From assembly GCA_965205975.1 (NCBI GenBank), contig OZ242195.1:768001-832000 (forward strand): a DNA stretch of 64,000 bases, given 5' to 3'. The first letter of the stretch is position 1; the number at the start of each line of letters is the position of its first letter. Source of the DNA: Candidatus Latescibacterota bacterium (GTDB lineage: Bacteria > Latescibacterota > UBA2968). The translations under genes and the position numbers were made by a program. A model generated the notes under the pieces. The model had not been told where the DNA came from, did not search any database, and worked only from the letters and a program-made list of their open reading frames with translations. Of the stretch, positions 1-63,681 are shown piece after piece.

Positions 1-355
1 GCCGCATCTCCGGGGGCATGGCCTGGGTCAGCCGGCGAATCGCCGACCGCAGGTGCTCGCCGAATGGTGTTCCCACCAACCCCATGCCCGCCTGCTCAGC
101 AAAGATCATCGCCGCGATTTCCATAATCGGAAAGTTTAGCGGCAGCTTGGTGTCCTTCTGTAGTTGGTAGTAGATGCGCTGATCGGCGCGCCGTGTTTCG
201 TGCAGTATAAATCCGGCCTCGCGCAGGTCACCCAAATCGCGCTGTATGGTGCGCCTATCTACGTTGTACTCGTCCGCCAGTTCGCGTACACTCATCCCGT
301 AACGCCGCGCCTGCAACTCCCGCAGGATGTCCAGTTGTCGCACAATCTGCTTCAT
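1..355 (-). CDS. HTH (DeoR/HTH_11-like) transcriptional regulator, probably YafY/WYL family; partial, runs off the window
   Basis: Not in the ORF track. Manual translation from ATG 355: MKQIVRQLDILRELQARRYGMSVRELADEYNVDRRTIQRDLGDLREAGF...LPLNFPIMEIAAM. The ELA-x4-V-xx-RTIxRDL motif is typical of YafY/PafC N-termini. The WYL domain itself would lie outside the window. Confidence 0.8.
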   Translation of the reverse strand, partial: MKQIVRQLDILRELQARRYGMSVRELADEYNVDRRTIQRDLGDLREAGFILHETRRADQRIYYQLQKDTKLPLNFPIMEIAAMIFAEQAGMGLVGTPFGEHLRSAIRRLTQAMPPEMR

Positions 356-368
356 TGAATCAACGCCC

Positions 369-602
369 CTATTCCGCCGCTCGTTTCACTAAGTAATCAA
401 ATAGCTTTACCCAAATCGTCTTAGGCATCCGCTCCGGGTGAAACTGCACGCCGATCAAGCGGCCATCCGCGCATTCATTGCGTTTTGTCCGGTCGAGGTC
501 ACACACCCCAACAAGGTCAAAATGATCAGAATCGAGATATGGCTTCACATAAATTTTGCCTCTGCCACCAAGGCCGAGTTGGGCAACACGGTGCTTTTTC
601 AT
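369..602 (-). pseudogene. In-frame chimera: Gfo/Idh/MocA oxidoreductase N-terminus fused to class I glutamine amidotransferase (peptidase C26-like) C-terminus
   Basis: The first ~46 aa (RVAQLGLGGRG...DLVGVCDLD) are a Rossmann start. The last ~31 aa (LIGVQFHPE...LFDYLVKRAAE) are a GATase-I end. Total length is only 77 aa. Confidence 0.75.
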
Positions 603-611
603 AAATTCTCT

Positions 612-1283
612 CTATGCTATCAGCCATGTAATTGCGTTGTCAATAAGCTTCGCAGTCATTGGATGCATAAGAATAGCCTGATCGTGCCCGGGCACCAGCA
701 TCATCACACGTCCACTTCCATACTCATGACACCAACCTTGCACATGCCGTCCATTGGTCACAGAATAGCTCTCAAGAAATACAGATGTTTGCGATTCATC
801 CAGGTCCATAATGTACTCTTCTTCTTGAACACAATAGGGTTCAACACCATCGGTCAGTTCGGGTAATACGCCCGTCGGACGGATTTCGACATCGATTCGC
901 TTTGGATGGTTGTGAAAACGAGACTTTGAGACGCGCTGAATACCGCCACCTTCGGAATAAAACGCAACGGCATCGTGGTGAAGAAATAGTCGGCCGCCAT
1001 TTTGTGCATATGCCTCAATGAGCGTTTCCTCATCTTCAGAAAGCCACTTGTGTTTATGCCCTTGCTGAAGAGTAAACTGCAACTCACGAGCATTTCGTAC
1101 ATCGTCGAATGCATATCGGCTAATGAGCACCATATCAAAAGATGAGAGATCGTCCCAGGGCACCGCGTTGTCAAATACAATTGTCGGATCATACCCTCGC
1201 ACCTGTAGTGGTCTCACAAGCGCAGTAACCAGATGCGCCGGACAGTGGTAAGCGTCTCCAAGAACTGCGAGTAATTTTTTCAT
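612..1283 (-). CDS. ThuA-like (trehalose utilization) domain protein
   Basis: LGDAYH start, GGRLFLHH, NHP, EEEY and GW-x4-GSGRV-x4-PGH motifs; AGGAG RBS. Confidence 0.8.
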   Translation of the reverse strand: MKKLLAVLGDAYHCPAHLVTALVRPLQVRGYDPTIVFDNAVPWDDLSSFDMVLISRYAFDDVRNARELQFTLQQGHKHKWLSEDEETLIEAYAQNGGRLFLHHDAVAFYSEGGGIQRVSKSRFHNHPKRIDVEIRPTGVLPELTDGVEPYCVQEEEYIMDLDESQTSVFLESYSVTNGRHVQGWCHEYGSGRVMMLVPGHDQAILMHPMTAKLIDNAITWLIA

Positions 1284-1330
1284 AACCTGCTCCTTTTGGC
1301 GGTCAGGACGGCAACCGCATAACTAAAGCC

Positions 1331-2491
1331 CTACTCATAGACCATCTCCCCGGTCTTGTGGTTTTCGATCCAGTCCCGGTCGAACTCCACCCCCAGTCCC
1401 GGCCCCTCCGGCACTTCGACACAGCCGTTCTCATCGACCGAATCCAACTCGTCGAGCCAGCGTCTTTCTGGATAGACCGCCGGCTTGGTATCGGGCACCA
1501 GGGGATGCACCAGGCCCAATTCGTAGTAATTGGCGTTGCGCAGGGTCGCCATGATATGCCGGTGCGCCAGATTGCCACCATGCAACTCCACGTCCAGCCC
1601 GTGTGCCTCGGCCATAGCAGCGATCTTCATTACCCCGGTGATGCCGCCGTCGGTCTGGGCGTTGGCGCGTACGAAGTCGGTGGCGCCGGCAGTAATCGTA
1701 TCGGCCTTGGCTTCAAGCCCACGCACGTGTTCGCCCATCAGCATCGGCGTATTGATCAGTTCGCGCAGCTTGGCGTGGGCAAAGCGCGAAAAGCCGCCGC
1801 CCCTAAACGGGTCTTCATACCACATATAACGCGCCTCGTCGCAGGCGCGCCCCACCTTGAGCACGTCCTCGAATGTGGGAAAACACCCGGCCGGATCGAG
1901 CAACAGATCCATATCGTCGCCCACCGCTTCGCGGATGGCTAATACCGCCGCTACCTCGCGATCGATCGGCCCGTTGACCCAGCCGTGGATCTTAAACGCT
2001 GGATAGCCGTATTGCTCCTTGCAGCGCAACGCGAATTGCGCAAAGTCGTCCGGCGTCGTCAAACCGCCGTTTTCATCGCCGTGGTAGGTCGAGGCGTAGG
2101 CCGGTAGCTTCTTGCGCCAGCCCCCGCCCAACAGTTCGTAGATCGGCGCGTCGTAGAGCTTGCCAGCGAAATCCCACAGCGCGATATCTACCGCGCCCGG
2201 CGGCGTGCCGTCCTGCCCGCGGCGCGAGCGCTTGAGGTCGTGCCAGATGATCTCGCGGTCCAGCGGGTTGCGGCCGAGCAAGTACTGCGCCGGGCGGGAA
2301 TCGATGCCACCGGACGCAATGCCGCTGATGCCGACGCTGGTCTCTATGGTCAGCAAGCCGCCCCCCAGAGTCAGGCGGCCGCCCTTGCGATAGACCGTGT
2401 CGAAGCCCAATTGCTCCTCCAACTCCATATCGGCGATCTCGTAGGCGAAACTCGTCGAGGTAATGCGGGTGATCTCAATATCTCGCGCCAT
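1331..2491 (-). CDS. Mandelate racemase/muconate lactonizing enzyme (enolase superfamily)
   Basis: VDIALWDFAGK, PAYAST, FKIHG, LLLD, WYEDP, GE and PEGPGLGVEFD motifs; AAGGAG RBS. Confidence 0.9.
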   Translation of the reverse strand: MARDIEITRITSTSFAYEIADMELEEQLGFDTVYRKGGRLTLGGGLLTIETSVGISGIASGGIDSRPAQYLLGRNPLDREIIWHDLKRSRRGQDGTPPGAVDIALWDFAGKLYDAPIYELLGGGWRKKLPAYASTYHGDENGGLTTPDDFAQFALRCKEQYGYPAFKIHGWVNGPIDREVAAVLAIREAVGDDMDLLLDPAGCFPTFEDVLKVGRACDEARYMWYEDPFRGGGFSRFAHAKLRELINTPMLMGEHVRGLEAKADTITAGATDFVRANAQTDGGITGVMKIAAMAEAHGLDVELHGGNLAHRHIMATLRNANYYELGLVHPLVPDTKPAVYPERRWLDELDSVDENGCVEVPEGPGLGVEFDRDWIENHKTGEMVYE

Positions 2492-2543
2492 GGTGCTCTC
2501 TCCTTCGCTGTGTGTTTGGTTTTAACTTCTGCTCCACGGCTAC

Positions 2544-3428
2544 TCATCTCACGATCTGAGGTGACGCATAAAGATCGGGCCTGGCCTCGTTCGCTGTGAA
2601 GCAACCGGATGATCGCGCTTTCTCTATTAAATCTCTCGAGACCTCGGTCACGATCATGCCTTCCACTGGCGCGTGTTCGTCGATGAACTGGCCGTTCGGA
2701 TCGATCGCGAAGGCGAGCCCTGGAAACCAGGCGTTGCCGCTTTTTCCCGCCTGGTTGGCGTAGAAAATGTAGAGCGCATTGTCCACTGCCCTTGCTGGCA
2801 AGACCTGGGCGGCAAGCTGTCGATGTTCGGCTGCCTGTTCGGTCTGATCGCCGTCAGGGGTGACGTTGTCAGCGCGGCCGCTTGCACCTACGGCGAGGAG
2901 GAAAAAGTCCGCGCCCTCCTGTGCGGCGGTTCGGAAGATCTCCGGAAACCTCAGGTCGTAGCAGATCCCCACGCCGAAGGTCCAGCCTTGCGATGTCACG
3001 ATAGGGAGTTGGCTCCCCGGTTCGAACCAGGCCCGCTCGGTTTCATTCGGGATGTGCAGTTTGGTGAAGGTCGCGAGGTAACCGCTGGGCCCTACGATGT
3101 AGGCGCTGTTGCGATAGCGTTCGCCCGCTGGCTCGATGGTACCGACGACAAGGGTCATGTCGAGTTCGCTGCAGAGCGATTCGAGGAACGGAATTGATTT
3201 CTCGGCCGCTGCTTCTGCGATCCGCAGGGACTCCTCGGGAGGAATGTCCGATTTGTTCATCGAGCCCGTGATGCACTCTTCGGGAAAGAGCGCAAACGCG
3301 GCACCTTGCCTGTGAGCCTCTCTCGACCACTCGGCAATCCGGTCGAGGTTGGTCGTGGGGTCGCCCATCGCGCTGTGCATGGCGACCGATGCGATACGTG
3401 TTTTTGTGTTGTTCATGGGATCTGCCAT
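2544..3428 (-). CDS. Carbon-nitrogen hydrolase (nitrilase family)
   Basis: Catalytic E-K-C motifs LFPEE, FTKLH and GICYDLRFPE. Confidence 0.9.
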   Translation of the reverse strand: MADPMNNTKTRIASVAMHSAMGDPTTNLDRIAEWSREAHRQGAAFALFPEECITGSMNKSDIPPEESLRIAEAAAEKSIPFLESLCSELDMTLVVGTIEPAGERYRNSAYIVGPSGYLATFTKLHIPNETERAWFEPGSQLPIVTSQGWTFGVGICYDLRFPEIFRTAAQEGADFFLLAVGASGRADNVTPDGDQTEQAAEHRQLAAQVLPARAVDNALYIFYANQAGKSGNAWFPGLAFAIDPNGQFIDEHAPVEGMIVTEVSRDLIEKARSSGCFTANEARPDLYASPQIVR

Positions 3429-3466
3429 TCGACCCTTTCTCCGATGCGTGGTTATTCATGTGTACT

Positions 3467-4432
3467 TCATACAGCCGAACGGACCGAATAAACCGCTTCG
3501 AGCGAACCGACGTTCGGACGGCGGTTCTCATCGTTCTGCCGGATGTTGCGGGCGAAGAAATCGTCGAACAGTTCCAACTCAAATTCTCTCGCAATGTCTA
3601 TGGCCGAGCGCTTATCCGAATTGCTGTGGATCAAGGCGGTCCCGATATAGCTCGGTATGTCGATTGTGACCTCATCCTGGTATTTCTTCTCGATCAGCGG
3701 AAACTTGCTGGAGTTTCCGCTGCGTTTGACCAGCACGCGGTCCAGGTTGATTGTTGCGCACATCGTGCGTGAATAGTTGGTGTTTAGTTTCACGGGCTGG
3801 CCGAGGGGATTGATCACCCCGCCTCCGTAGAACCGAAGCGCGGTCAGATAGTAGCACTGGCATTCGTACGCCCATTGCTGCTGAAGGAATCCGCCGTGAT
3901 AGGCACTGGGAAATGTGAGGATGTCCGGTTTCAGGTCCCGGTAATCGAACCGAAGTTGTTCGAATTTCTGGTCGAAACAAACCACCCCTCCAAGGCGACC
4001 GATCGCGGTGTCGAAAACTTTGGGGCCGTCACCCGAGCGCAGCCCTTGTTTTCGTTCGTTATCCGTCAGGAACGTCTTGTGATAGGCACCGATCACTGAG
4101 CCATCAGGGCCGATATACACAATAGAATTGAACACATCGTCGCCTTCGCGGAGCTTGATGGATCCGGCCACATGGCATGACTCGGTCCTGGCGAAATCCC
4201 GGTACATTGACAAAAACGGACCCGGCTGTTCCACGGTCTCGGCCGTTTCCAGGGTCTGGCCGTATCCTTCGACCAGCTCACAGGTCAACACGAGGTCCAG
4301 GTTGTATCCTTTCAATGAATTGAGGTCGTTTCGGGTCATGCGCAGTACTTTTTCCATGCTCTCGGGTTCACCCCGCTGCAAATCGGCAAATGCACTGAAC
4401 TGAATCGACCCCACTCTTACGAATCGTGCCAT
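3467..4432 (-). CDS. Carbon-nitrogen hydrolase (nitrilase family)
   Basis: LTCE, YHKT and GGVVCFD motifs; GGAG RBS. Confidence 0.85.
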   Translation of the reverse strand: MARFVRVGSIQFSAFADLQRGEPESMEKVLRMTRNDLNSLKGYNLDLVLTCELVEGYGQTLETAETVEQPGPFLSMYRDFARTESCHVAGSIKLREGDDVFNSIVYIGPDGSVIGAYHKTFLTDNERKQGLRSGDGPKVFDTAIGRLGGVVCFDQKFEQLRFDYRDLKPDILTFPSAYHGGFLQQQWAYECQCYYLTALRFYGGGVINPLGQPVKLNTNYSRTMCATINLDRVLVKRSGNSSKFPLIEKKYQDEVTIDIPSYIGTALIHSNSDKRSAIDIAREFELELFDDFFARNIRQNDENRRPNVGSLEAVYSVRSAV

Positions 4433-4473
4433 ATATCTCTCCTTTCACAATGCTAATCGTGCTGGACCGTCCA

Positions 4474-4893
4474 TTAGAGCGCGGCGTTGCCCGCCTCCGT
4501 CCGCAAGCTGTGTCGGCCCTCTATATGCGCGTGCCAGTCCATGCCGATCTCCGGTCGTGATCGGGTCGGTCTGGGCAGCGCATGCCGCAGCGGACACACC
4601 TCGTCCATTACCTTGCGAACGAAGCTCCAGGAGATGCCGCCGACCTGGTCGCCATTTTCGCACATCCGCGTGATATGGGGCAACTCGGACCAGTAGTCCA
4701 CCACCGAACGCCCCAGATTCCAAACCAGATGGTCGCAGCCCGCTTGCAGGTGCAGGTCGATGCACTCGTCCAGTGCTTTGGGGCCCGGGCACGGCTTGTC
4801 GTAGTTGGCGTAGTAGCACATCCACTCCGAAATGCCGAACACCGGTTTTTCGTTGCCGCTTGCCGCGCGCAATTCGAGTTGCTCTCGCGCCAT
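4474..4893 (-). pseudogene. Truncated N-terminus of a putative TIM-barrel glycoside-hydrolase-like protein, followed by unrelated sequence
   Basis: Strong RBS (AGGAGG). The protein-like N-terminus (AGCDHLVWNLGRSVVDYWS...VCPLRHAL) is followed by a low-quality tail. At 139 aa it is too short for a complete barrel. Confidence 0.5.
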
Positions 4894-4932
4894 TTGATAT
4901 GACCTCCTGATCGGGTGTATTTATCGAAAGCA

Positions 4933-5868
4933 TTAAGCGGACCATCGCGCGGTGCCGATGGCGTAATACTTGTGTACAAAAGGTGGTTTGGTGCGCGAAG
5001 CGTACCACAGGCGCAGGGAGCCGTCGGTTAGGCGCAAGAGCGAATGGCTGGTGGTAAAGTGCGATTCCCAGGACCGCGAAGGGTCGGGGCCGAAGATCGG
5101 ATTGCGAGGGCTTTTCGTCCAGTTGAAGCCGTCTTCGCTGATGGCAAATCCGATGGAGGTTTTCATGACCTCGGGCGGATAGCTGCTATAGCTGCCGTAC
5201 CACATCAGATAATAACCGTCTTCTTTGAGAACGGTTGGATAGACCAGGCGCTGGAACTCCCATTCCTGATCCAATTCCAGCACTGGCTGGGGATGGACTT
5301 GCCACTCAAAGCCGTCGTCGCTGGTGGCAGCGCGTATGGTCCAGGGGTCGGCGGTCACATCGGTGTACCACAGGCGGTAGTGGTCGTCTTCCCAAAACAG
5401 GGTGGGGGCGTAGGCGTTTTCTAATAGGGGAGGGGAGGGCGTCTCCCAGCGGAGTCCGTCGTCGCTGGTCATGGCGTGCAGGGTGTGGCGTGTGTCGCCA
5501 GAAGGAAAATCGGTCGAGGAAAAAAACATACGCAGCTTGCCCGCCTCGCGTCTCAGGGAGCCGTCCGGGTGGCGTACCAGGGTGGGGGTGAGGATGGAGT
5601 GGTCGGTCTCCAGGGTGCAAACCGGGGAGGCGGGGTGTCGTGTAAAATGCAGGCCGTCGTCGCTGGTGGCCAGCCCCAGAGCAAAAACCCGCAGATCTAC
5701 TTCGCCGCGCGAGCCGCTGTACCACATGTAATAGCGCCCGTCTTCCAAAGCGACACAGGGAGCAAAAATGTGGGTGTCGTCAAATTGACCGGCTGCGCCC
5801 AGGGACAGACAAGGTGCATCAATGTCTCGCTCCCAGGGTTGTGGATCCAGCCATTGGTTTTTGTCCAT
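4933..5868 (-). CDS. Five-bladed beta-propeller glycosidase-like protein (GH43/32/130 clan-like)
   Basis: Repeated P-x-V/L...Y-x-MWYSG...G-x-A-x-SDDG-xx-W/F blades. Confidence 0.75.
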   Translation of the reverse strand: MDKNQWLDPQPWERDIDAPCLSLGAAGQFDDTHIFAPCVALEDGRYYMWYSGSRGEVDLRVFALGLATSDDGLHFTRHPASPVCTLETDHSILTPTLVRHPDGSLRREAGKLRMFFSSTDFPSGDTRHTLHAMTSDDGLRWETPSPPLLENAYAPTLFWEDDHYRLWYTDVTADPWTIRAATSDDGFEWQVHPQPVLELDQEWEFQRLVYPTVLKEDGYYLMWYGSYSSYPPEVMKTSIGFAISEDGFNWTKSPRNPIFGPDPSRSWESHFTTSHSLLRLTDGSLRLWYASRTKPPFVHKYYAIGTARWSA

Positions 5869-5885
5869 GATCTATTTTCCTCATT

Positions 5886-7310
5886 TTACCTCGCCGTATA
5901 ATCCCCCTCCAAAATACAGGGGAGACCATCGCGGGCCATCAGTGCAATCCGCGCCAATCCATGCTGTAAAAAACTCGGTCCCATCTGCGACTCGTACCAA
6001 TCAATTCCCGACGCACCTCTCGGCAGATCGCCGTCCATATAAATGGCCACAAGCTTCTCGGCAAGGGCCAGGCCCCCGTCCAGCCACCTGGTTTCTCCCG
6101 TCAGATCATATAAATCTGCCAATAACTCCAATCCTAATCCGGCATCCATCGCCGGTACGGCAATGTCATCCGGGAAATCGGTTTCCAAATAGCTCTTTCC
6201 AACTGCGAGGGTCCACTCTAAAAGCCCTTGATAGGGCCGAATGCGATGGCCACACAGGGCAAATAGTGCGGCATAACAGGCGGGCCAGTTTCCATATACG
6301 CTGCCCCAAACCGGCATCGTCCCTTTCGCCTCGTTGGAACCCCGGTGAAAGGAATTCACATAGATACCCCGTTCCAGATCGTGGGGAGCTTTTAAAAATC
6401 CGTCGATATAAACGGCCGCCCGTTCTCTCATGCGGGTGGCCAGATCTGGTAACGCACCTGCAATCAACTCGGCGGATTCAAGCAGGCTCACCCCCAGGGA
6501 GAGCGTCTGTCCAGGCGCATTGATTTGATAAAAATCCACATCGTCCTCGGGCGACCGGCTCTCCGTCTGTAGCAGGCCCAGGTCGTCTCGCTTCTCCCAC
6601 CAGTAGTCCAGCATGGTTTCGATCTGTTGTACAAAATCCGTCCGACCCGTCTTCAAGTGGGCAAACGCCCAATCGAAAATGTAAAATCCCCCATGCCTCG
6701 GGAAATCGCAGGACCGCGTCCCCCGGGCATAGGGTCGTTTCTCATCGATATATGCATGCCGAATGTATTCCAGTGGCTCTCCTTCGGTCCAATGTCCGTT
6801 GATTCCCTCGGCAAAGCGCTCGACGCATGGCGGATTGAAGGCATACAGTTTTTCCCACAGCCAGAGCGGTGCCTGTCGCAGGTGATCGTGTGTCGTCTTG
6901 CTGGGCATTGCTCCCTCCCGCAACTGATAGCTGTCTGCCACCCGATCTTCCAATAGGTGCCAGTACGCGTGTTCTCCCCAGGGAAAAATACCCGTTATTG
7001 TATTCGTACAGTGGGTTGCAAACCGCTGCAAATACCGGTCTGCCGCCTGTGCATAATCCGGGCGGTCCAGCGCCTCGGCAAGCGCGTACATTGTCTTTAG
7101 CGCCGCCTGATCGTGGATCAGATTGCTGCCCAAGTGTGACCGATCGCCGTCCCGCTGTCCCGCAATCCCCGGCGGCATTTTCGTCATCATCTGATGGGTC
7201 GATCGATCAATAATCGAGGGGAATAACCCCTCATAGATCGCTCCCAATGCGACCAGAATATCCAGCGAACGGCACACTTTCTCAAGCATGGTTTCGGGGT
7301 TCATCAGCAT
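5886..7310 (-). CDS. Hypothetical (alpha/alpha)-toroid protein with weak PL2 pectate-lyase-like motifs
   Basis: 474-aa ORF with GGAGG RBS. SNLIHDQ and TGIFPWGEH recall PL2-type SNL...GLLxWGGH; LYDLTGETRWL is a typical toroid helix motif. Confidence 0.5.
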   Translation of the reverse strand: MLMNPETMLEKVCRSLDILVALGAIYEGLFPSIIDRSTHQMMTKMPPGIAGQRDGDRSHLGSNLIHDQAALKTMYALAEALDRPDYAQAADRYLQRFATHCTNTITGIFPWGEHAYWHLLEDRVADSYQLREGAMPSKTTHDHLRQAPLWLWEKLYAFNPPCVERFAEGINGHWTEGEPLEYIRHAYIDEKRPYARGTRSCDFPRHGGFYIFDWAFAHLKTGRTDFVQQIETMLDYWWEKRDDLGLLQTESRSPEDDVDFYQINAPGQTLSLGVSLLESAELIAGALPDLATRMRERAAVYIDGFLKAPHDLERGIYVNSFHRGSNEAKGTMPVWGSVYGNWPACYAALFALCGHRIRPYQGLLEWTLAVGKSYLETDFPDDIAVPAMDAGLGLELLADLYDLTGETRWLDGGLALAEKLVAIYMDGDLPRGASGIDWYESQMGPSFLQHGLARIALMARDGLPCILEGDYTAR

Positions 7311-7330
7311 CCTCCGATCTAAAGAAAAGA

Positions 7331-7361
7331 ATTATATATAGCCTTTTAGGGGTCAGGTCAA
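7331..7361 (-). promoter_or_regulatory. Putative sigma70 promoter
   Basis: Minus strand TTGACC-N17-TATATA (or N19-TATAAT), about 20 bp upstream of ATG 7310. Confidence 0.5.
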
Positions 7362-7416
7362 GTGGTGTAAGGCGTGGATTGAAAGGCAGAGAGGCAATAA
7401 TTTTCCACTGCTATGC

Positions 7417-8781: not shown

Positions 8782-8782
8782 A

Positions 8783-9742: not shown

Positions 9743-9770
9743 GACTCATTCCTTTGTTCTTCCTGTTTTT

Positions 9771-49737: not shown

Positions 49738-49739
49738 AG

Positions 49740-51034: not shown

Positions 51035-51066
51035 TGTCCAGTCTCGGTCAGGATTGACAGCAGGTC

Positions 51067-51095: not shown

Positions 51096-51141
51096 GCGAA
51101 TCCAAATCTCTTTGGGCTTCCCGGGATTCTTTGGTTGCGGG

Positions 51142-52176: not shown

Positions 52177-52216
52177 GGCAAATATCTCAATTTTTCTGAA
52201 AACCGAATGTTCACTA

Positions 52217-52999: not shown

Positions 53000-53126
53000 G
53001 GAAAGTCTCCTGATGAAATTGACGATGTTTCAAGTTGCCAAAATACATGATTGTGGGGCACTCCTGCAAGCAGAGATGCGCCCGCCTCTCTTCCGAAAGA
53101 TGCTTCGCCCAATTGCGTTTGACTTC

Positions 53127-53585: not shown

Positions 53586-53593
53586 AATGTCGT

Positions 53594-54832: not shown

Positions 54833-54867
54833 TGTATTACTTCTGTTCTCCAAAAGTCTTGATCGCC

Positions 54868-56328: not shown

Positions 56329-56375
56329 AACTGTTTCCTTTGGACCTGTTAGAAGTAGTGGCGGCTCGACGCCTT

Positions 56376-57545: not shown

Positions 57546-57642
57546 TCCCCCTCCTCTATAGGGTAGGTTGTCGAATGGCAGAAGGAGTGCAGCGACTGAA
57601 GCACGGACACATGGTTAAGCGTCCGTATTGTTTTTTGTTATC

Positions 57643-58797
57643 TTATTTTTGGGTGGGAAATAAGTGTTGCAGAGAATTCTTGGCAGATAGCGTATCATCA
57701 AATGGTTCAATTTTATTATTCTCAACAATAACTGATGAACGATCTCTTGGAGCAACATCAATTTCAACAACTAATATCTTTGGATCGTTGGTATAAAAAA
57801 CATTGTTCACAACAGTGTTATCCCGCCCTGTTGGAGCAGGGATATTTTTCTGATCAAGATAGTCCACCCTTACTGGATCGTCCGTTTTTTTATTAAAAAT
57901 CTGAATATATCGAGTCAGGTTCTTATTAGATCCGATGAATTTATTATCCTTTATGATGTTGGCAAATCCCGCCAGTTTGACAATCTCTTCATTGTAGGAT
58001 TTTTCATAACAGTATAGAATATTATTCCGGACGGTTACAAATGAGGCCGCGTATTTGATATCGATATATTGCCCCAGTAATCCCGGTCCCAATATGCTTT
58101 CCTCAATTATGATATTATGGGCTCTTGCCATTTTTCCTCTTTCTTCAAGCCCTTTTGATGAACCAATATAAAAGCCTTCTCCTTCATGAGCGTTATAATC
58201 TTTATCCAGCCATTCTCCAATATGATGGATTTTCATTCTTCTAAAGGTGTTATGGTGACTTTCATTCCTGATAGCTACAGCAGTGTTATGTGTATGATGT
58301 ATATGCACATCTTCAATAACATTATGGTGTGATCCCGATCCCAATAAATATAAACCGATACGAAAACCCTGCGTGTTCCAATACCCCTTGTCCAGAGACA
58401 CTTTCTTCCCGGTTATTTCTATGCGGGAAATGTTCCAGAACGAGCCACTGAGTTTGATTGCTACCAAATCCTCTTCCTTTTTTTGGCCAACCGTGGAAAT
58501 TACAGCATATCGACCCTGGCCTGTGCTGTCTTTTGATGTAAGGGTGATTCTATTTTTAGCGGACCCATTTGCATGTAGCTTAAAACTCTTATCGATTTCA
58601 TACACTTTGCCGCCCTGAAGCACAATCGTATCACCAGGCTTGACGGTATCCAATGCATCGTAAACATCCTTGCTTGTAGCGCATTGATAAATATCGCTGG
58701 CGTAAAGCACATTGATATTGGCAATCAACAGGGAAAAGGAAATAATCAAAGGAGGCAAGAGTCGTTTCGGGGCTAAATTGTTAATGACGTTTTTCAT
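57643..58797 (-). CDS. Secreted right-handed beta-helix (pectin-lyase fold) protein
   Basis: VKPGDTIVL, GEGFYIG, IDIK and VRNN repeats; AT-rich. Confidence 0.7.
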   Translation of the reverse strand: MKNVINNLAPKRLLPPLIISFSLLIANINVLYASDIYQCATSKDVYDALDTVKPGDTIVLQGGKVYEIDKSFKLHANGSAKNRITLTSKDSTGQGRYAVISTVGQKKEEDLVAIKLSGSFWNISRIEITGKKVSLDKGYWNTQGFRIGLYLLGSGSHHNVIEDVHIHHTHNTAVAIRNESHHNTFRRMKIHHIGEWLDKDYNAHEGEGFYIGSSKGLEERGKMARAHNIIIEESILGPGLLGQYIDIKYAASFVTVRNNILYCYEKSYNEEIVKLAGFANIIKDNKFIGSNKNLTRYIQIFNKKTDDPVRVDYLDQKNIPAPTGRDNTVVNNVFYTNDPKILVVEIDVAPRDRSSVIVENNKIEPFDDTLSAKNSLQHLFPTQK

Positions 58798-59807
58798 ACA
58801 TCCCTCACCATATCGTTCTCAGCCGACAGCCGTGCGACCTCCCCGCGCAGTCGGGCATTCTCTGTTACGATCTTGCCAGCGCGAATGTCCTCCTCCCTGA
58901 ACCTTGCCATGAAAACTGCTCCGGTTGGCGTGCGATTGTAATCGTAAATGATGTAGATTGTTCCATCGTCTGCCTGCACGCCATCGGGATAGGTGACCTT
59001 CTCCCGTTCATCCAGCATGAGTCCACCCTGCCACGTCTGGCCTTCATCGTCGGATACAAACGCCACCAGTTTCTCGCGTCTCGTCTTTTCGTTCATGGAT
59101 CCATGTTTGACCAATAACAATGCGCCAGACTTCAAACGACGCACAAAAAATCGGGTGGTAGGATGTGGTATTTTAAGACGTTCAACGGGCGTCCAGGTCT
59201 TTCCAAGATCGTAAGAAACTGTCTGGCCGATGCCACGGACTCGCACCAGCATCCAGAGTGAGCCATCCTTTCGCTCAACAATCATCGGTTCATCAGGTCC
59301 CCGCAATTCCGAGTTGACAATATTAGCAGTACTACGAAGCTCGAAGGTCTTGCCCTGATCGCGCGAGGCATAGACCTTGATGCTGTTGTCAGTCTTCCAT
59401 ACAGACGAGGTAAAGAGCCAATCGCCATTCGATAGTACCGTTGGTTTGTTCAGCATGATGCCATTACCCAATCGACGCGGTTTCGACCATGTTGGGTTCT
59501 CTGCATCTGGATCGCTGGTGACAATAGCCCATATGCCGTAACGGCCATCTTGTTGACCAAAACTCTGTCCCCAGAAAACCCACATCCGATCCTTGGGGTC
59601 GGTCCAGATGGAAGCGGACATAGCCCGAACGTCCCTGCGAGGCATTACCATGACTTTTGGATCTGACCAGGTGTGTCCATCGTCATCACTACGAATCAAG
59701 ACCTGGTAGTTTCGAGGGCTTTCGACATCCCGCCCGTAAACTGCCCACAACCGTCCCTTTGCGGTGCGTTCGATGCCTGGCACGCCCTGTCGTGTGGTTG
59801 GCGGCAC
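58794..59807 (-). CDS. Sialidase/BNR_2 family protein, probably 5'-truncated
   Basis: RQGVPGIER, SDDDGHTW, DEP and TYPD motifs. The reading frame (VIVNPWKQHVPP) extends to ~59834 without an ATG or signal peptide; only a GTG start at 59807. Confidence 0.8.
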   Translation of the reverse strand: MPPTTRQGVPGIERTAKGRLWAVYGRDVESPRNYQVLIRSDDDGHTWSDPKVMVMPRRDVRAMSASIWTDPKDRMWVFWGQSFGQQDGRYGIWAIVTSDPDAENPTWSKPRRLGNGIMLNKPTVLSNGDWLFTSSVWKTDNSIKVYASRDQGKTFELRSTANIVNSELRGPDEPMIVERKDGSLWMLVRVRGIGQTVSYDLGKTWTPVERLKIPHPTTRFFVRRLKSGALLLVKHGSMNEKTRREKLVAFVSDDEGQTWQGGLMLDEREKVTYPDGVQADDGTIYIIYDYNRTPTGAVFMARFREEDIRAGKIVTENARLRGEVARLSAENDMVRDV

Positions 59808-59834
59808 ATGCTGTTTCCACGGATTGACAATGAC

Positions 59835-59941
59835 CGTCGTGCGTCCAATCCACCCTGAAACCCAAAGCGTTCTGATAATAGGCTGCTATCAAGGTCTGAG
59901 CAACTGAGACTCGGGATTATGACCTCTGCCATCTTTTGCAT
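59835..59941 (-). pseudogene. VOC/glyoxalase-family remnant, frameshifted and truncated
   Basis: AAGGAG RBS; MQKMAEVIIPSLSCSDLDSS, a frameshift near 59880, then YYQNALGFRVDW; joined to the sialidase body. Confidence 0.7.
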
Positions 59942-60028
59942 GAGAACCTCTCCTTTCAAATTTCTTTACAAGATTCCTGTCCCAGTCGGCAGGTAAGGCA
60001 CACAAGTCCTTCTTCACTCAGTGTTCTG

Positions 60029-60628
60029 TCAACCCAAGATCCCTCTGGATACCAGATGGGATTCGAGTCTCTCTACAGTTGTATAGTGATGGGTTTTCAG
60101 CCCAACGGAAATGGTAGTTTCAATATTTGGCAGCCTGTCGTCGATGAACAGGGATTCCTCTGCAGCAACATCCATGGTTCGCAGCACATGTGTGAACGCC
60201 CGTGGATCGCTCTTGGTGAATCCAGTCTCATAGGAATAAAACTGCCGCTTAAAGACCTGCAAAAAAGGGTGATTTTGTCTGACGAAATCAGCCCATTCTC
60301 TTCCATGATCTGAAAGGATGACTACATCCATCTTCTCCGCCAGCGATGTAACGAGTGCGATTGCGCGATTGTCGGATTGAAGAAGGTTTCGCCTTATCGT
60401 TTCTCTCAGCCCTTCTACAGTGATCGGCCAGCACCTCTCAGAGATTATCTCGCTAAGATACTCGTCCTCTGTTATACGCCCTACGAACAAAGTTGTGAGC
60501 AGATTTCCACCAAAGCATGGCAGGATTTCATTTTGTGGGATTCCCAGTATTGGCTGAAGTTCTACTTCTATTCCGTACAGGCCAGAAACAAGTACCTCAG
60601 AGAGATCGGAAATGATGAGCCTTATCAT
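60029..60628 (-). CDS. HAD-family hydrolase
   Basis: LIISDLSEVL (atypical motif I), ILSD, TKSDP and LFIDD motifs. Confidence 0.8.
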   Translation of the reverse strand: MIRLIISDLSEVLVSGLYGIEVELQPILGIPQNEILPCFGGNLLTTLFVGRITEDEYLSEIISERCWPITVEGLRETIRRNLLQSDNRAIALVTSLAEKMDVVILSDHGREWADFVRQNHPFLQVFKRQFYSYETGFTKSDPRAFTHVLRTMDVAAEESLFIDDRLPNIETTISVGLKTHHYTTVERLESHLVSRGILG

Positions 60629-60766
60629 GGTCTGTGATTCTTTCGGCAAATAAGCCTTGTGGTTTCAAAGCCGAATGGCAGGTAATGTCTTCGACATGCC
60701 CGAATTGGGATGGTTGGGCGTCTTTCAATTAATACGGCTGCTATTGCCGACGCAGGTGTGACAATT

Positions 60767-61363
60767 TTACCACTCATCCAGATTGCGATCAAAAAAACTC
60801 ATAATAGCCCTGGAATCAGGCCTATCCATATAAGCCATGTCTGAAAAATAACATCTACTATCGAGATCACACATTATCGAATTGAGAGGCGCGCCAAGAA
60901 TAGTTTTTAGGCTCTGATTTGAAGTAAATAGCACTTCCATTTGCCAACTGTGAAGAAGGGGTGCAGATTCACTGTGAACCAGAGCAATACAATTGTACCA
61001 GGTGCCAAAAGTTGAGTCACCAACAGAACATATTTTTTTTACATAATGGTCAATAATCTGCTGATCTGTGGCCTCTTGCTCTTGGGAACAAATTCGCCGG
61101 ACAAAAACGTTAGGTTGCTCCTTATTTGACAATCCATTGATCACCAGTCCAGAATCGATTGCAAAAGATGGGAGGCCCGATGTTTGATAATAAGCTATTG
61201 CCTTTTTGATCGCATTCTTTTCAGGGGTATCACCGTCTTCAGTTACATCTAATTTTAGTCCCAATTGGATAGGATCTATAATTTCAATTGAAAACGGCGA
61301 TAAAATATGTCTAACATGACGAATTTTTTCTTTATTGGCCGTTCCAAATAGAATCTTCTTCAT
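60767..61363 (-). CDS. Non-canonical purine NTP pyrophosphatase (Ham1/ITPase-like)
   Basis: FGTANKEK, EDGDTPEKNAIKKA and IDSGL motifs. Confidence 0.8.
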   Translation of the reverse strand: MKKILFGTANKEKIRHVRHILSPFSIEIIDPIQLGLKLDVTEDGDTPEKNAIKKAIAYYQTSGLPSFAIDSGLVINGLSNKEQPNVFVRRICSQEQEATDQQIIDHYVKKICSVGDSTFGTWYNCIALVHSESAPLLHSWQMEVLFTSNQSLKTILGAPLNSIMCDLDSRCYFSDMAYMDRPDSRAIMSFFDRNLDEW

Positions 61364-61423
61364 AAAAAATTAAACCTCTGTTCTGTCTCGAACTCATCAA
61401 ACCCCTGGTCAACACGACTCTAC

Positions 61424-63490
61424 CTAAAATCGACCAAAATCTGGGAAACTGGCTTCAAAGAGATACGCGAGCTTTGTAAATACGGCGCGCCCACCTGGCA
61501 GTCTATCAACAAACACAAAGTAAAAGTGGCTTTCTGGGGTGAACTCGTAGTCGAAGATTGCGTTGAAATTGTAGCTGATCTCATCTTGCAACCGCTCATC
61601 TACGCGTTCAAAAAAAATGCGCCAACCGATCTTTTGGGTCAATTGATAGTTACTGCGGAGCCGGAAAATTAGCGTATTTCGATGTGTACGCCAAAAGAAA
61701 TTATCCAGGTCGAGATCAGCGGTCAGCTTGCCAAAGAGGTTGACACCCGCAGAGAAGCTGGTAAATCGGTTGAATTCATCTCGACGAGTTCCGAAACGAT
61801 TTGAAACCTCCAGGTGCCACCACGGTGCCTGATAATCAATCACTGAGCCGATAAACCTGGTATCGAAAAGTTGACCGACTTCGCGAAGGGCGCCAAACCC
61901 ACCATAGGTAAAGAAATCAAATCGGCCAATATCAATATCAAAACGGAACTCACTCCGCCGTTCCCGCAGCAATTTTTGTGCATTGGTTTGGTAAAAATGG
62001 CGCATATCAGCACCTAATGACTGCACGAGATTCGCCTCTGGAAACTCGTGTCTGTACCTCACGCGAGCACGCCCCCGACGGAATGCCTCATCTTCAAGCC
62101 CCATCTCATTTGGACGAAAACCGTCCTGAATCTCTTCAAACGCGATTTCGGTGAGCCAACCTTCATGAAGCCATTCCATTTCAGTGTGATACGCCCGATG
62201 CGTTTCGCCATCGATGAAATCGACAGCATACTGCGACGTTACCGTCCAGTCTCGATGAAGTCCAAATCGACCATTGAGTGATAGGAGTGCCACATCTCGA
62301 TCTGCCTGATGTTTATGGATTCCCATTGCGCCGATGACAGTGCGCTCGCCGATATCGTAATTAACCCGCCCGGCCAAAAGATTTGCCTGCTTTTTTTTGT
62401 CTGCATCATACCGATCGATCATTTTGCCGTAAGTGTTGATGACCGCGAAATTAGAACCACCAATTTTGCCTGCGGTTTTTACACCAAAATCGATTTCTTG
62501 AACACGGCGAGTATAGAATAAATTGAGCGGCAACCTGAACAGTTCAGCACCTTCCCGGAAGAATGGACGGCGTTCAGGGAGAGACAACTCCCGATCACTT
62601 GATATGTTAATTTGCGTCGGGTCACTTTCCAATTGTGAAAAATCGGGATTGAAAGTCACATTCGAGGTGAGGTGCGTCGAAATCGGGAGAATCAGGTCTA
62701 AACCACCATCGTGGTCATTGGAACGATTTTCTATTGCACGATAGGTCCCGTAGGGGAGAATACCGATCTTCTGCTCTGTTTTGATCTTTTCGAAATTCAA
62801 TCCAGTCAAATCGCCAAACTCCGATACGCGCCCGAAAAAATCGGTGCGTGCCCACGAATAGGATTGACCATTTATCGGATGTGTCCGCCAAAAGTTGATT
62901 CCCCACGTCGTATTGTGCCGATTAAAACGGAGCACGCGAAACGGGATCGCAAATTCTGCTGTCCAGTGATTTCGGTGTTTTTTTATTTTTGATTCCCATT
63001 TTGCATCCCAACTCAGGTCGAAAACACTCTCATTACTGACCCGCTCGTCCATCTGTGTGCCGAGTGTATTGATTCCAAATACGTAGCAGTTGCGACGGTC
63101 GCGATAGGTATCAAGCATCACTTCGATACAGTCATTCTGCCAGATGGCGGAATCCCGGCGAATTTTCGTCTCGCGCAAACTCTTCATGTCCGGCTCATCG
63201 CAACGCACGCCGATATAGAGCATGTGCTCATCGTACAGCATCCTGACTTCCGTGTTCAATTGCGCCGGATGGATGCTTCCCTCCTTTGCACGAAAGAAAT
63301 TGGTTGCAATTTGGGCGCGTTGCCAGACACTATCTGTAAGCTCGCCATCAATAATGGGGGGATTGTCCGTCCATGTGGCACTGATGGTGCGCGTTGAGCT
63401 TTGCGTTTCTGCGAAAAGCGGTAGCGTCAGCAGCACAATTGGCACCCAAATTATCGCGCATGACCACCGCACCTGTTTGGCTTTCTCCAC
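61424..63490 (-). CDS. CBM9-like plus DUF5916 outer-membrane protein
   Basis: PPIIDGELTD, WTAEFAIPF, NPDFSQLE and PERRPFF motifs; GTG start with AGGAGG RBS. Confidence 0.85.
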   Translation of the reverse strand: MEKAKQVRWSCAIIWVPIVLLTLPLFAETQSSTRTISATWTDNPPIIDGELTDSVWQRAQIATNFFRAKEGSIHPAQLNTEVRMLYDEHMLYIGVRCDEPDMKSLRETKIRRDSAIWQNDCIEVMLDTYRDRRNCYVFGINTLGTQMDERVSNESVFDLSWDAKWESKIKKHRNHWTAEFAIPFRVLRFNRHNTTWGINFWRTHPINGQSYSWARTDFFGRVSEFGDLTGLNFEKIKTEQKIGILPYGTYRAIENRSNDHDGGLDLILPISTHLTSNVTFNPDFSQLESDPTQINISSDRELSLPERRPFFREGAELFRLPLNLFYTRRVQEIDFGVKTAGKIGGSNFAVINTYGKMIDRYDADKKKQANLLAGRVNYDIGERTVIGAMGIHKHQADRDVALLSLNGRFGLHRDWTVTSQYAVDFIDGETHRAYHTEMEWLHEGWLTEIAFEEIQDGFRPNEMGLEDEAFRRGRARVRYRHEFPEANLVQSLGADMRHFYQTNAQKLLRERRSEFRFDIDIGRFDFFTYGGFGALREVGQLFDTRFIGSVIDYQAPWWHLEVSNRFGTRRDEFNRFTSFSAGVNLFGKLTADLDLDNFFWRTHRNTLIFRLRSNYQLTQKIGWRIFFERVDERLQDEISYNFNAIFDYEFTPESHFYFVFVDRLPGGRAVFTKLAYLFEASFPDFGRF

Positions 63491-63681
63491 CGTTTTTGCC
63501 TCCTGATCTGGACATTACAAGTCATAAGGGTGAGGAAGACAAGGTTCATGTGGTTTAGACAAATGGAAGGGGGTTTAGGTTTTCCGACCGAGCTATTGAG
63601 GGAAGTTAGCAATTGAGGATATTGCTTTTGTGCGCGATTTAGCGGGGTGGGATTTGGGAGCTGTTTTTGTCATCAGTGAAG

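What the first reader, a model, noticed from the sequence alone, without database searches (positions are those of the whole stretch)
1..63550. Integrase-free, scar-riddled unidirectional catabolic gene array (candidate gene-accretion/turnover system)
Seen: about 45 largely unrelated single catabolic genes, nearly all on the minus strand, tightly packed behind trpD. At least a dozen junctions hold gene remnants, and several remnants are diverged copies of gene ends elsewhere in the array. Base composition is patchy (hand counts: 36/60 GC at 18001-18060 vs 18/60 at 57901-57960). No integrase, transposase or conserved attC-like spacer is visible. Inference: the locus behaves like a cassette array without site-specific machinery. 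Genes enter by recombination anchored in a homologous gene on one side and an illegitimate joint on the other (homology-facilitated illegitimate recombination is established in naturally transformable bacteria). They leave by deletions between genes, giving a rapidly shuffled enzyme library for complex organic matter.
Basis: partly seen in the sequence, partly recalled or inferred. Interest (0 to 1): 0.9.

Follow-up and report, generated by a model that had tools for sequence, protein, structure and literature searches.

The report
Fast-shuffling sulfatase gene region, no integrase
This is part of a long one-directional stretch of sugar- and sulfate-ester-degrading genes in an uncultured sponge-associated bacterium; its genes are duplicated, deleted, reordered and swapped among close relatives by ordinary recombination accidents rather than by a dedicated cassette machine.

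Summary
44 of 46 genes lie on the minus strand. About 10 junctions carry gene stumps. Four stumps are 94-95% copies of gene ends elsewhere in the window. The GC hand counts are exact. The window has no integrase, tRNA or attC-like hairpin.

Three points do not hold:
- The genes are not unrelated; they include 9 sulfatases and 4 PhyH dioxygenases.
- The packing is ordinary for this genome.
- "trpD" is an accessory second copy inside a ~100-kb run, not an anchor.

The organism is taken to be a Latescibacterota MAG, because its closest relatives carry that title. Contigs closely matching the stretch occur in sponge metagenomes.

Against five congeners the window breaks into gene-sized blocks of 92-98% identity, with insertions, deletions and same-orientation rotations.
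- 17 of 37 clean indel joints share 4-28 nt, which points to short-homology illegitimate recombination.
- Duplicated gene ends and reciprocal stumps fit segmental duplication followed by differential loss.
- An IS605/TnpB end scar is present.
- Silent-site divergence from the closest congener is about half that of the flanks, and one gene shows transfer between families.

Gene-scale indels also occur in the flanks, so this is a hot, flexible region and not a discrete system. HFIR entry remains unproven.

The parts
1..64000 (-). Middle of a co-oriented run of catabolic genes (whole run: genome 755,454-857,920). 44 of 46 genes in the window are on the minus strand.
63723..64000 (-). 3' part of an accessory second trpD-type gene (full gene 63723-64739). 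It is not an array anchor.
19166..39980 (-). Eight of the nine sulfatase genes: 19166-21079, 21051-22685, 27101-28447, 29939-31255, 32309-33721, 33724-35205, 36524-37951, 37992-39980. They are interleaved with PhyH genes (23648-24496, 31252-32094, 35299-36366), an aldo-keto reductase, a beta-helix protein and a DUF4143 ATPase. All sulfatases have CxPxR and no signal peptide.
47314..48786 (+). Ninth sulfatase, one of only two plus-strand genes.
9771..15572 (-). RND efflux trio (AcrB-like, HlyD-like, outer-membrane factor). In G008 a 1305-bp TnpB element sits between two of its genes, and the trio is rotated relative to genes 15767-18946.
32127..32293 (-). Stump: 167-bp copy (95.2%) of the 3' end of sulfatase 27101-28447 (source 27090-27256). 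It lies upstream of PhyH 31252-32094, where congeners have the intact gene.
32294..32311 (-). About 17 nt of the start of a sulfatase ('73') that is intact at this place in G008, G010 and G015. Here it is fused to the stump above.
29725..29865 (-). Second, longer stump of the same sulfatase '73' (first 45 codons, 93-98% to congeners). It is cut at an 8-nt repeat, GCACCGTA.
28463..28496 (-). 34-bp copy (94%) of the RBS and first codons of PhyH gene 23648-24496 (source 24478-24511).
31191..31254 (-). 64-bp 5' end shared at 93.8% with the 5' end of sulfatase 32309-33721 (33639-33702). The two genes are otherwise diverged paralogs.
50750..51034 (-). Chimeric 94-aa ORF. A new start is fused to the last 93 codons of a 554-aa sulfatase that is intact in G008 and G010 (a shorter 489-aa ORF in G015). 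The joint is at the 7-nt repeat TGACCTT (51005-51011). Congeners have 6.6-10.5 kb here.
15573..15766 (-). Double scar: the first 54 codons of a DUF4432 gene that is intact in G015, plus a 28-nt copy of the 3' end of aldo-keto reductase 22696-23634 (15590-15617).
36434..36446 (-). Isolated end motif of the IS605/TnpB element family. Full copies lie at genome 844,3xx and 500,9xx.
47172..47313 (-). Stump of the N-terminus (residues 22-55) of a 690-aa protein that is intact in G010 and G002.
46116..47171 (-). Chimeric gene. A signal/dockerin-like leader is joined to a 245-aa domain that in G010 and G002 is the C-terminus of the long protein homologous to 41468-43445.
43821..46055 (-). Alginate-lyase/PhyH fusion gene. 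Its neighbours differ in nearly every congener. G015 has a second, internally deleted copy.
43446..43760 (-). Intact L-rhamnose mutarotase gene in what looks like a long junction. It is not a scar.
356..611 (-). Junction with short stumps: the last 33 codons of a 254-aa protein family (61% identity) and a weak amidotransferase-like piece.
8783..9742 (-). Apiosidase-like ORF lacking profile positions 1-122. It overlaps the GH125 gene and is probably a remnant.
60767..61363 (-). Ham1/RdgB-like gene that matches only the N-terminal ~120 of ~200 profile positions. Its 3' end (60766-60841) recurs at 66362-66437 (94.7%).
1331..2491 (-). High-GC (62%) enolase-superfamily gene with a laterally transferred distribution.
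57643..58797 (-). Low-GC (39%) Pel9A-like beta-helix gene, found only in this genus.

Best explanation
WHAT IT IS. The window is the middle of a ~100-kb co-oriented run in the flexible part of the chromosome of an uncultured Latescibacterota bacterium. Contigs closely matching it occur in sponge metagenomes. The run holds a pool of enzymes for desulfating and degrading sulfated glycans: cytoplasmic sulfatases, PhyH-type dioxygenases, lyases, glycosidases and sugar oxidoreductases. It is not a mobile element or a cassette machine. It is a paralog-rich, recombination-prone region that changes gene by gene.

SHOWN
1. Deletions between short direct repeats of 4-28 nt remove genes and leave stumps and chimeric ORFs.
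2. Gene ends occur twice, and congeners keep reciprocal halves. This is the pattern left by segmental (tandem) duplication followed by differential loss. That process rotates blocks of genes while keeping their orientation.
3. IS605/TnpB elements occasionally insert and leave end scars.
4. The region is exchanged with related lineages. Its silent divergence from the closest congener is about half that of the flanks, some genes are 99.5-99.8% identical, and at least one gene is shared across families at 88-92%.

INFERRED
- Deletions arise by replication slippage or RecA-independent short-homology recombination.
- Duplications arise by unequal exchange or slippage.
- Variants spread between lineages by homologous recombination through shared neighbouring genes.
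- Selection keeps only joints that spare neighbouring genes, which places many joints at stop codons and ribosome-binding sites.
For: MOSAIC STRUCTURE. Blocks of 92-98% identity end at gene borders in 4 of 5 congeners, with local permutations. The gene-order map shows 37-36-35-34-33-32 in G000, against 37-73-(scars)-36-35-32 in G008 and 37-73-148-34-33-36-32 in G010.

DUPLICATION AND LOSS
- G000 carries two pieces of the start of gene 73 and two copies of the end of gene 33.
- G008 carries collapsed stumps (212+100+48 bp) of the genes that G000 keeps, plus its own 73-like stump after gene 35.
- Second rotation: 27-26-25 | 24-23-22 in G000 against 24-23-22 | 27-26-25 in G008, with a duplicate of the reductase 3' end at the joint.
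- Third case: a 245-aa domain is detached from its protein and fused to a new leader.
- Intermediate duplicates exist in congeners: a second, deleted copy of the lyase gene in G015. Of 29 short internal duplicates in the relatives' regions, 28 are direct.

MICROHOMOLOGY. 17 of 37 non-redundant clean joints have 4-28 nt shared by both ends. My own estimate for random joints is under 2% with >=4 nt.

IS ELEMENTS. A 1305-bp TnpB insertion in G008, an end scar in the window and 7 TnpB genes in the genome.

EXCHANGE WITH OTHER LINEAGES
- Third-codon identity to G008 is 93.5% (window) and 94.4% (832-855 kb), against 85.7-90.0% in the flanks. The test compared 53 against 230 genes, Mann-Whitney p=8e-17, but the genes are linked.
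- The enolase-type gene is 98-99% identical in most of the 16 of 19 congeners that have a match. It is 88-92% identical in a genus of another family and only 41-58% in the genera of its own family.
- By comparison, core TrpD is 67% and 82% identical respectively.
- The low-GC beta-helix gene is in 11 of 19 congeners and in 0 of 101 other Latescibacterota searched.

NOT AN ASSEMBLY ARTEFACT. Contigs from another study bridge G000-type joints: X1 records 24001-27185 and 27227-29777. The alternative joints seen in congeners recur in metagenome contigs: 27056>29848 in X15/X16, 41458>43448 in X1, 28461>29696 and a 2104-nt insert at 43803/43848 in X3.

NO SITE-SPECIFIC MACHINERY..
Against: - The region is not sharply special. 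Gene-scale indels occur in one control (about 6 breakpoints in 20 kb) and across the 480 kb compared. Raw block density is 3.1 per 10 kb here, 1.9 in the right flank and 2.5-3.1 in the left flank; blocks crossing bin edges were dropped.
- Intragenomic short repeats are not enriched here: 2 and 1 per 100 kb, against a genome mean of 5.
- No event was polarised on a rooted tree. 'Insertion', 'deletion' and the order duplication-then-loss are therefore inferences from parsimony.
- No full tandem duplicate is present in G000 itself.
- Lateral origin was tested for only 2 of 46 genes.
- Gene calls are my own crude longest-ORF calls.
- The relatives are one genome per species, and most records seen are MAGs.
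- Lower silent divergence could in part reflect local mutation-rate differences rather than exchange.
Confidence: 0.6

Rival explanations
1. An integrase-free cassette array behind a fixed anchor, into which foreign genes enter by homology-facilitated illegitimate recombination after natural transformation, and from which they leave by deletion.
For: - No integrase or attC.
- Microhomology joints.
- Several insertions are flanked on one side by a duplicated 13-28-nt piece of a resident gene end.
- Genes of lateral or genus-restricted origin with deviant GC.
- ComEC and DprA are present.
- A 475-bp piece of the lyase/PhyH gene sits at 88% nt identity in an Opitutales MAG.
Against: - The trpD copy is accessory and lies inside the run.
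- No joint could be shown to have one long homologous anchor and one illegitimate end.
- Most variable genes belong to the same resident families, and homologues lie together in a more distant Latescibacterota (L054).
- Duplicated ends and reciprocal stumps are explained better by duplication and loss.
- Competence genes also ring in non-transformable controls.
Confidence: 0.2
2. IS605/TnpB elements or other transposons drive the shuffling by carrying or mobilising neighbouring genes.
For: - A TnpB element is inserted in G008's efflux operon.
- An end scar lies at 36434.
- 7 TnpB genes are in the genome, and an IS3 lies at 853,045-854,321.
Against: - Only 1 of 37 clean indels is an IS.
- The end motif occurs 3 times in the whole genome.
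- Other inserts carry no IS ends.
Confidence: 0.05
3. A cryptic site-specific cassette system (integron-like, or a cluster of attC sites without an integrase).
For: Co-oriented, mostly single-gene units with variable content.
Against: - No tyrosine recombinase closer than 1.57 Mb on the chromosome map.
- Spacers of 2-60 nt are too short for attC.
- No recurrent inverted repeat or shared motif at junctions.
- Joints fall inside genes as well as between them.
Confidence: 0.03
4. Artefact. The scars and mosaics come from chimeric assembly of mixed strains in metagenomes.
For: The genome and the relatives whose record titles I saw are MAGs. Several structural variants co-occur in the same runs.
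Against: - The same junctions recur in independent assemblies: the intact '73' gene with identical borders is in G008, G010 and G015.
- Contigs from other studies bridge G000-type joints.
- Stumps are diverged 4-6% from their source copies, which assembly errors do not produce.
Confidence: 0.04

Closest known systems
Flexible genomic islands / 'small variable segments' made by illegitimate recombination (Touzain et al. 2010, PMC2884548; I read the abstract and passages)
   Same: - Gene-scale variable segments between close genomes.
- They do not correspond to known mobile elements.
- A share of them is flanked by direct repeats under 30 bp, attributed to replication slippage.
- HFIR is discussed as an entry route.
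   Different: - Here the comparison is between species of one genus, not between strains.
- The density is high, at about one breakpoint per 3 kb.
- Blocks are also rotated without inversion.
- The region is less diverged than its flanks.
Tandem paralog clusters evolving by recombination between paralogs, such as the S. aureus lpl cluster (Tsuru & Kobayashi 2008, PMC2568036; abstract read)
   Same: - A co-oriented cluster of paralogs.
- Rearrangements shuffle gene parts.
- The 3' end of one ORF, the spacer and the 5' end of the next ORF travel together. The 64-bp and 167-bp shared ends here fit that pattern.
   Different: - The lpl cluster is one family with a conserved central recombination site.
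- This run mixes many families.
- Most joints here use only 4-28 nt.
Integron cassette arrays and integrase-less attC clusters (from my own knowledge)
   Same: Co-oriented, closely spaced, mostly single-gene units. Content varies among relatives.
   Different: No IntI and no attC. Joints fall inside genes. Units carry their own ribosome-binding sites.
Orphan immunity-gene arrays at Vibrio cholerae T6SS loci, built by sequential displacement (Kirchberger et al. 2017, PMC5361080; only the search listing and the start of the abstract were seen)
   Same: An array that grows without site-specific machinery. The search found the HFIR term 5 times in the paper's text.
   Different: That array has a fixed conserved anchor and one functional class. 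Here there is no fixed anchor, and duplication-loss is prominent. Whether that paper reports gene remnants I did not read.
Tandem-duplication/random-loss model of gene-order change in animal mitochondria (recalled; all 10 listed of the 24 hits are mitogenome papers)
   Same: Rotation of gene blocks with orientation kept. Leftover pseudogene stumps lie at the predicted joints.
   Different: Here it acts on a bacterial chromosome, in a 100-kb catabolic region, and is combined with lateral exchange.
Polysaccharide-utilisation loci and sulfatase-rich clusters of marine glycan degraders (from my own knowledge). Sponge Latescibacterota are reported as enriched in glycoside hydrolases and esterases, with lateral transfers of GH33 and CE7 genes among sponge MAGs (Robbins et al. 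2021, PMC8163846; passages read)
   Same: Co-located sulfatases, lyases, sialidase-like BNR proteins, an acetyl-xylan-esterase-like protein and sugar oxidoreductases.
   Different: - No SusC/SusD pair.
- All nine sulfatases lack a signal peptide.
- The run is far longer than one substrate-specific locus.

Membership tests
Integron / attC cassette array | Integron-type tyrosine recombinase next to the array | tested here: not met
   PF00589 gives 6 places in the genome. The nearest is at 1,574,544, more than 740 kb away. None is in the window or in the flanks I annotated.
Integron / attC cassette array | attC-like imperfect inverted repeat between cassettes | tested here: not met
   Spacers are mostly 2-110 nt. 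There are 24 inverted repeats in 64 kb, and none recurs at junctions. Only 7 short shared strings occur between junction zones, all explained as stumps.
Integron / attC cassette array | Co-oriented gene units with variable content among relatives | tested here: met
   44 of 46 genes are on one strand. Content and order vary.
Flexible genomic island (hypervariable region) | Gene content differs among close relatives while the surrounding chromosome is collinear | tested here: met
   480 kb of G008 is collinear with G000 592-1053 kb. The window is a mosaic, with 20 blocks and 88% covered when the whole 480 kb is searched. The trpD-anchored 80 kb of the five relatives covers 73% down to 1% of the window.
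Flexible genomic island (hypervariable region) | Sharp borders with conserved core, often a tRNA and an integrase | tested here: not met
   There is no tRNA and no integrase. The left flank is as fragmented as the window. Only the right flank, from about 855 kb, has long blocks.
Short-homology-dependent illegitimate recombination | Deletion joints lie at short direct repeats present once in the deleted form and twice in the full form | tested here: met
   17 of 37 clean joints share 4-28 nt. GCACCGTA, TGACCTT and CGACGGT were checked by eye in both forms.
Segmental duplication followed by differential loss | Two copies of the same gene part in one genome, at the joints predicted by a rotation | tested here: met
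   The end of gene 33 occurs twice and the start of gene 73 occurs twice in G000. A copy of the end of gene 30 lies at 15590-15617.
Segmental duplication followed by differential loss | Relatives keep reciprocal copies; orientation is kept; intermediates with full duplicates exist | tested here: met
   G008 keeps stumps where G000 keeps genes, and the reverse. 28 of 29 internal duplicates in the relatives are direct. G015 has two copies of the lyase gene. The order of events was not tested on a rooted tree.
Homology-facilitated illegitimate recombination | A foreign insert with one long homologous anchor and one microhomology joint | tested here: inconclusive
   Both flanks of every insert are homologous between congeners, so the two ends cannot be told apart. 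No donor was identified.
Homology-facilitated illegitimate recombination | Natural transformation in the organism | not testable with these tools
   ComEC and DprA families are present, but they are also present in non-competent controls.
IS200/IS605 (TnpB) element | TnpB gene with the conserved element end | tested here: met
   This holds for elements outside the window: TnpB at genome 844,308-845,447 with the end motif at 844,269. Inside the window only the 13-16-nt end motif is present, at 36434.
Bacteroidota-type polysaccharide utilisation locus | SusC/SusD-like transporter pair | tested here: not met
   No such family is among the Pfam hits of the 52 window ORFs scanned.
Anthranilate phosphoribosyltransferase (TrpD) | Scores above the curated cut-off of TIGR01245 | tested here: met
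   314 bits against a cut-off of 199. It is nonetheless a second copy, 35% identical to the copy at 2.74 Mb; a copy of that canonical type is present in 31 of 31 genomes.

The most novel reading that the evidence does not exclude
The co-oriented run is a true recombination hot region that works as a recombinase-free module library. Gene-sized units are duplicated, rotated, pruned, fused into new proteins and traded among co-resident symbiont lineages. Per unit of silent divergence, this happens about three times faster than in the neighbouring chromosome. My own ratio is 3.1 blocks/10 kb at about 3.5% divergence, against 1.9 at about 6-7%.

A possible cause is that the whole run is transcribed head-on to replication. 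The window lies on the replichore whose leading strand is +, between dnaA at 4.18 Mb and the skew maximum near 1.47 Mb. That orientation would favour fork stalling and slippage. Duplication followed by loss would then be a general, overlooked route of gene-order change in bacterial chromosomes.
Probability: 0.25. Interest if true: 0.7.

Novelty: new member of a known kind. Interest (0 to 1): 0.45.

Why it matters
The region shows, at single-joint resolution, how an uncultured symbiont reshapes its glycan-degrading enzyme set. It does so without integrases, by slippage-type deletions, duplication with differential loss, and exchange with neighbouring lineages.

The many closed genomes of one genus make each step traceable, including the birth of chimeric genes such as 46116-47171 and 50750-51034.

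The processes themselves are textbook ones. The value therefore lies in a clean natural example and in a test bed for rates of illegitimate recombination, not in a new mechanism.

Tried and rejected
- Junction k-mer enrichment: the random-coding control was flawed because sampled zones could overlap. Only the list of shared strings is used.
- Rfam: no match.
- Inverted repeats: nothing at junctions.
- Repair-defect explanations: Ku is absent, so NHEJ is unlikely. MutS and MutL are present, so there is no mismatch-repair loss.
- Competence genes: present but uninformative.
- ESM Atlas: the nearest cluster of the high-GC gene is commonest in Chloroflexota, and that of the low-GC gene is commonest in Pseudomonadota. 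These are leads only and are not used as evidence of a donor.
- Packing: 'tight packing' as a special feature is rejected.
- GC patchiness at 2-kb scale: ordinary for this genome.
- Scar density: 'scar-riddled' relative to the rest of the genome is rejected.
- Rhamnose mutarotase 'remnant': the gene is intact.
- Read laying: only Logan contigs were available, so there is no depth or raw-read evidence. Stretches without a listed bridging contig, such as 32095-32308, remain unverified.
- Literature: a search for tandem duplication/random loss in bacterial genomes listed 10 of 24 hits, all on mitochondria. A search for Latescibacterota + sponge + symbiont + sulfatases found 0 papers. Neither search covers subscription journals.

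Full report
WHAT IS THERE

The window is G000:C1:768,001-832,000 of a closed 5.56-Mb chromosome with 50.9% GC. I genes, 44 of them on the minus strand.

Pfam and NCBIfam annotation gives:
- 9 sulfatases and 4 PhyH-type dioxygenases, one of them fused to an alginate lyase
- 2 nitrilase-type hydrolases, 2 BNR/sialidase-like proteins and 2 beta-helix proteins
- GH125, an enolase-superfamily enzyme, an aldo-keto reductase, a GFO/IDH/MocA oxidoreductase and esterases
- an MFS transporter, an RND efflux trio, a DUF4143 ATPase and rhaM
- several large proteins without any family

All nine sulfatases keep the CxPxR motif and lack a signal peptide. The genes are therefore a functionally coherent, paralog-rich pool, not 'largely unrelated' genes.

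The minus-strand run extends well beyond the window, over genome 755,454-857,920. Sulfatase, PhyH, GH4 and apiosidase genes lie on the far side of the 'trpD' gene.

That gene (63723-64739) passes the TrpD model but is a second copy:
- The canonical gene lies at 2.74 Mb in G000, and a canonical-type copy is present in 31 of 31 genomes searched.
- This copy is in 10 of 18 congeners, with broken pieces in several.

The relatives at 93-97% protein identity carry record titles naming Candidatus Latescibacterota MAGs. The stretch is held by sponge-metagenome runs of about 10 studies. Of these I laid four runs.

CHECK OF THE OBSERVATION

- The GC hand counts are exact.
- Gene GC ranges from 38.7 to 62.4%, SD 5.3 against 4.2 genome-wide. 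At 2-kb scale the window ranks only at the 80th percentile.
- One-strandedness is unusual: 1.3% of 50-gene windows reach 90%. This is in a genome with a clean GC-skew V and no leading-strand gene bias.
- Packing is ordinary.
- There is no tRNA, no tyrosine recombinase closer than 1.57 Mb on the chromosome map, no Rfam family and no recurrent hairpin at junctions.

Stumps are real. Of 29 gaps >=36 bp, 7 hold protein-level remnants. Three further decayed features are an IS605 end scar, a truncated apiosidase-like ORF and a truncated Ham1-like gene.

Four pairs of 34-167 bp at 94-95% identity link stumps or gene ends to gene ends elsewhere. One long 'junction' is in fact an intact rhaM gene.

COMPARISON WITH RELATIVES

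I fetched 80 kb around the accessory trpD copy in five congeners. Against four of them the window is a mosaic of blocks at 92-98% identity that end at gene borders, with insertions, deletions and local permutations. The fifth, G016, shares only a single 648-bp block inside the window. Coverage of the window is 73, 58, 50, 30 and 1%.

An ortholog map shows a shared backbone interrupted by lineage-specific genes and by rotations that keep orientation.

The relative-specific genes are of the same families. Of 54 scanned, 9 are sulfatases and 6 are PhyH, alongside reductases, enolase-type enzymes, GH10, esterases and one TnpB.

In 15 loci around the lyase/PhyH gene, that gene has at least 8 different upstream and 7 different downstream neighbours. 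Some of those loci are probably the same genomes as the handles, so they are not all independent.

IS THE REGION SPECIAL?

- A control around the canonical trpD is mostly collinear in long blocks.
- A second control is collinear but has about 6 breakpoints in 20 kb.
- 480 kb of G008 is collinear with G000 592-1053 kb, with gene-scale indels throughout. Density is 3.1 blocks/10 kb in the window, 2.5-3.1 to the left and 1.9 to the right (blocks crossing bin edges were dropped).
- Permutations number 2 in the 64-kb window and 4 in the other 416 kb.
- Short local repeats are common genome-wide (280 pairs, 240 of them direct) and are not enriched here.

This is therefore the hottest part of a broadly fluid chromosome arm, not a discrete locus.

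MECHANISMS

Deletion. I listed 51 clean indel joints, 37 after removing repeats of the same event. Seventeen have 4-28 nt shared by both ends. Examples are GCACCGTA, which truncates a sulfatase to 45 codons, and TGACCTT, which fuses a new start to the last 93 codons of another sulfatase where congeners have 6.6-10.5 kb. These are the marks of short-homology illegitimate recombination. Ku is absent.

Duplication and differential loss.
- G000 has the order 37-[stump of 33]-36-35-[stump of 73]-34-33-32. G008 has 37-73-[stumps of 34 and 33]-36-35-[tiny 73-like stump]-32. G010 has 37-73-148-34-33-36-32.
- Two copies of the start of gene 73 and of the end of gene 33 in one genome, with reciprocal retention in relatives, fit a tandem duplication of the block that predates the split, followed by different losses.
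- The same logic fits the rotation of 27-26-25 against the efflux trio, which has a copy of the reductase 3' end at the joint.
- It also fits the detachment of a 245-aa domain that in G010 and G002 ends a 937-991-aa protein. In G000 that domain is fused to a dockerin-like leader upstream of the lyase gene.
- Intermediates exist. G015 has a second, internally deleted lyase gene. Of 29 short duplicates in the relatives' regions, 28 are direct.

IS elements. One 1305-bp TnpB element splits G008's efflux operon. Its end motif survives as a scar at 36434.

Exchange.
- Third-codon identity to G008 is 93.5-94.4% across 768-855 kb, against 85.7-90.0% in the flanks. Single genes reach 99.5-99.8%.
- The 62%-GC enolase-type gene is 98-99% identical in most of the 16 of 19 congeners that have a match. 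It is 88-92% identical in a genus of another family and only 41-58% in the genera of its own family.
- Core TrpD shows 67% and 82% respectively.
- The 39%-GC beta-helix gene is confined to the genus: 11 of 19 congeners and 0 of 101 other genomes of the phylum.
- A 475-bp piece of the lyase/PhyH gene lies at 88% nt identity in an Opitutales MAG.

NOT ARTEFACTS

Contigs of another study bridge G000-type joints. The alternative joints of the congeners recur in metagenome contigs, some in the same runs as the G000 form. Only contigs were available, so frequencies cannot be given.

VERDICT

The 'system' reading is too strong. There is no anchor, no borders and no machinery, and the processes are known ones.

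HFIR remains possible for primary gains but is not shown.

I rate it a new, well-resolved member of the known class of flexible, recombination-shaped catabolic regions.

Noticed in passing
L056:10000-10474 (Opitutales MAG record) against window 43848-44322: A 475-bp fragment, 88% nt and 85% aa identical to the PhyH end of the lyase/PhyH gene, sits in a closed chromosome of another phylum. Its neighbours there are unrelated. This may be a cross-phylum import of a gene fragment.
   Followed up: partly
L036:200-277 (G000 2,729,200-2,729,277) and many places in G008, G015 and G016: A short dispersed repeat, partly in arrays with a ~40-nt period, has dozens of near-identical copies across the congeners' genomes. 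It was not characterised.
   Followed up: no
window 1-355 and L001:15179-19971 (genome 763,179-768,355): The left edge of the window adjoins a defence-like trio: an HTH-WYL-WCX regulator, a PD-(D/E)XK nuclease-family protein and a double AAA ATPase.
   Followed up: no
window 19166-39980 and 47314-48786: All nine sulfatases have the formylglycine motif but no signal peptide, so they look cytoplasmic. PhyH genes sit next to them; 31252-32094 overlaps the next sulfatase by 4 nt. The pairing hints at a joint desulfation/oxidation chemistry.
   Followed up: partly
window 1-64000; genome-wide skew: dnaA is at 4.18 Mb and the skew maximum near 1.47 Mb. This puts the window on the replichore whose leading strand is +, so the whole run is transcribed head-on to replication. 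Local GC skew is negative, opposite to its replichore.
   Followed up: partly
window 29939-31255 and 64827-66086 (just past the window end); genome 848,688-851,225: A sulfatase, two small unknown genes and a MacB/FtsX-type permease are 99.2-99.8% identical between G000 and G008. The core genes are about 93% identical. This points to very recent exchange.
   Followed up: partly
window 16605-18710, 41468-43445, 48811-49737, 54868-56328: Large conserved proteins with no Pfam or NCBIfam match. The 701-aa one is 78% identical in a more distant Latescibacterota (L054), where it lies next to homologues of the lyase and a sulfatase.
   Followed up: no
L003:1373-3710 (genome 852,373-854,710): An IS3-type transposase pair is flanked by a truncated M24 peptidase and a truncated methyltransferase, near the right end of the co-oriented run.
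   Followed up: no
window 37992-39980: A 662-aa sulfatase whose domain matches in separate stretches with an unmatched middle. The architecture is conserved in congeners and in L054, so it is an established variant and not a fresh scar.
   Followed up: partly
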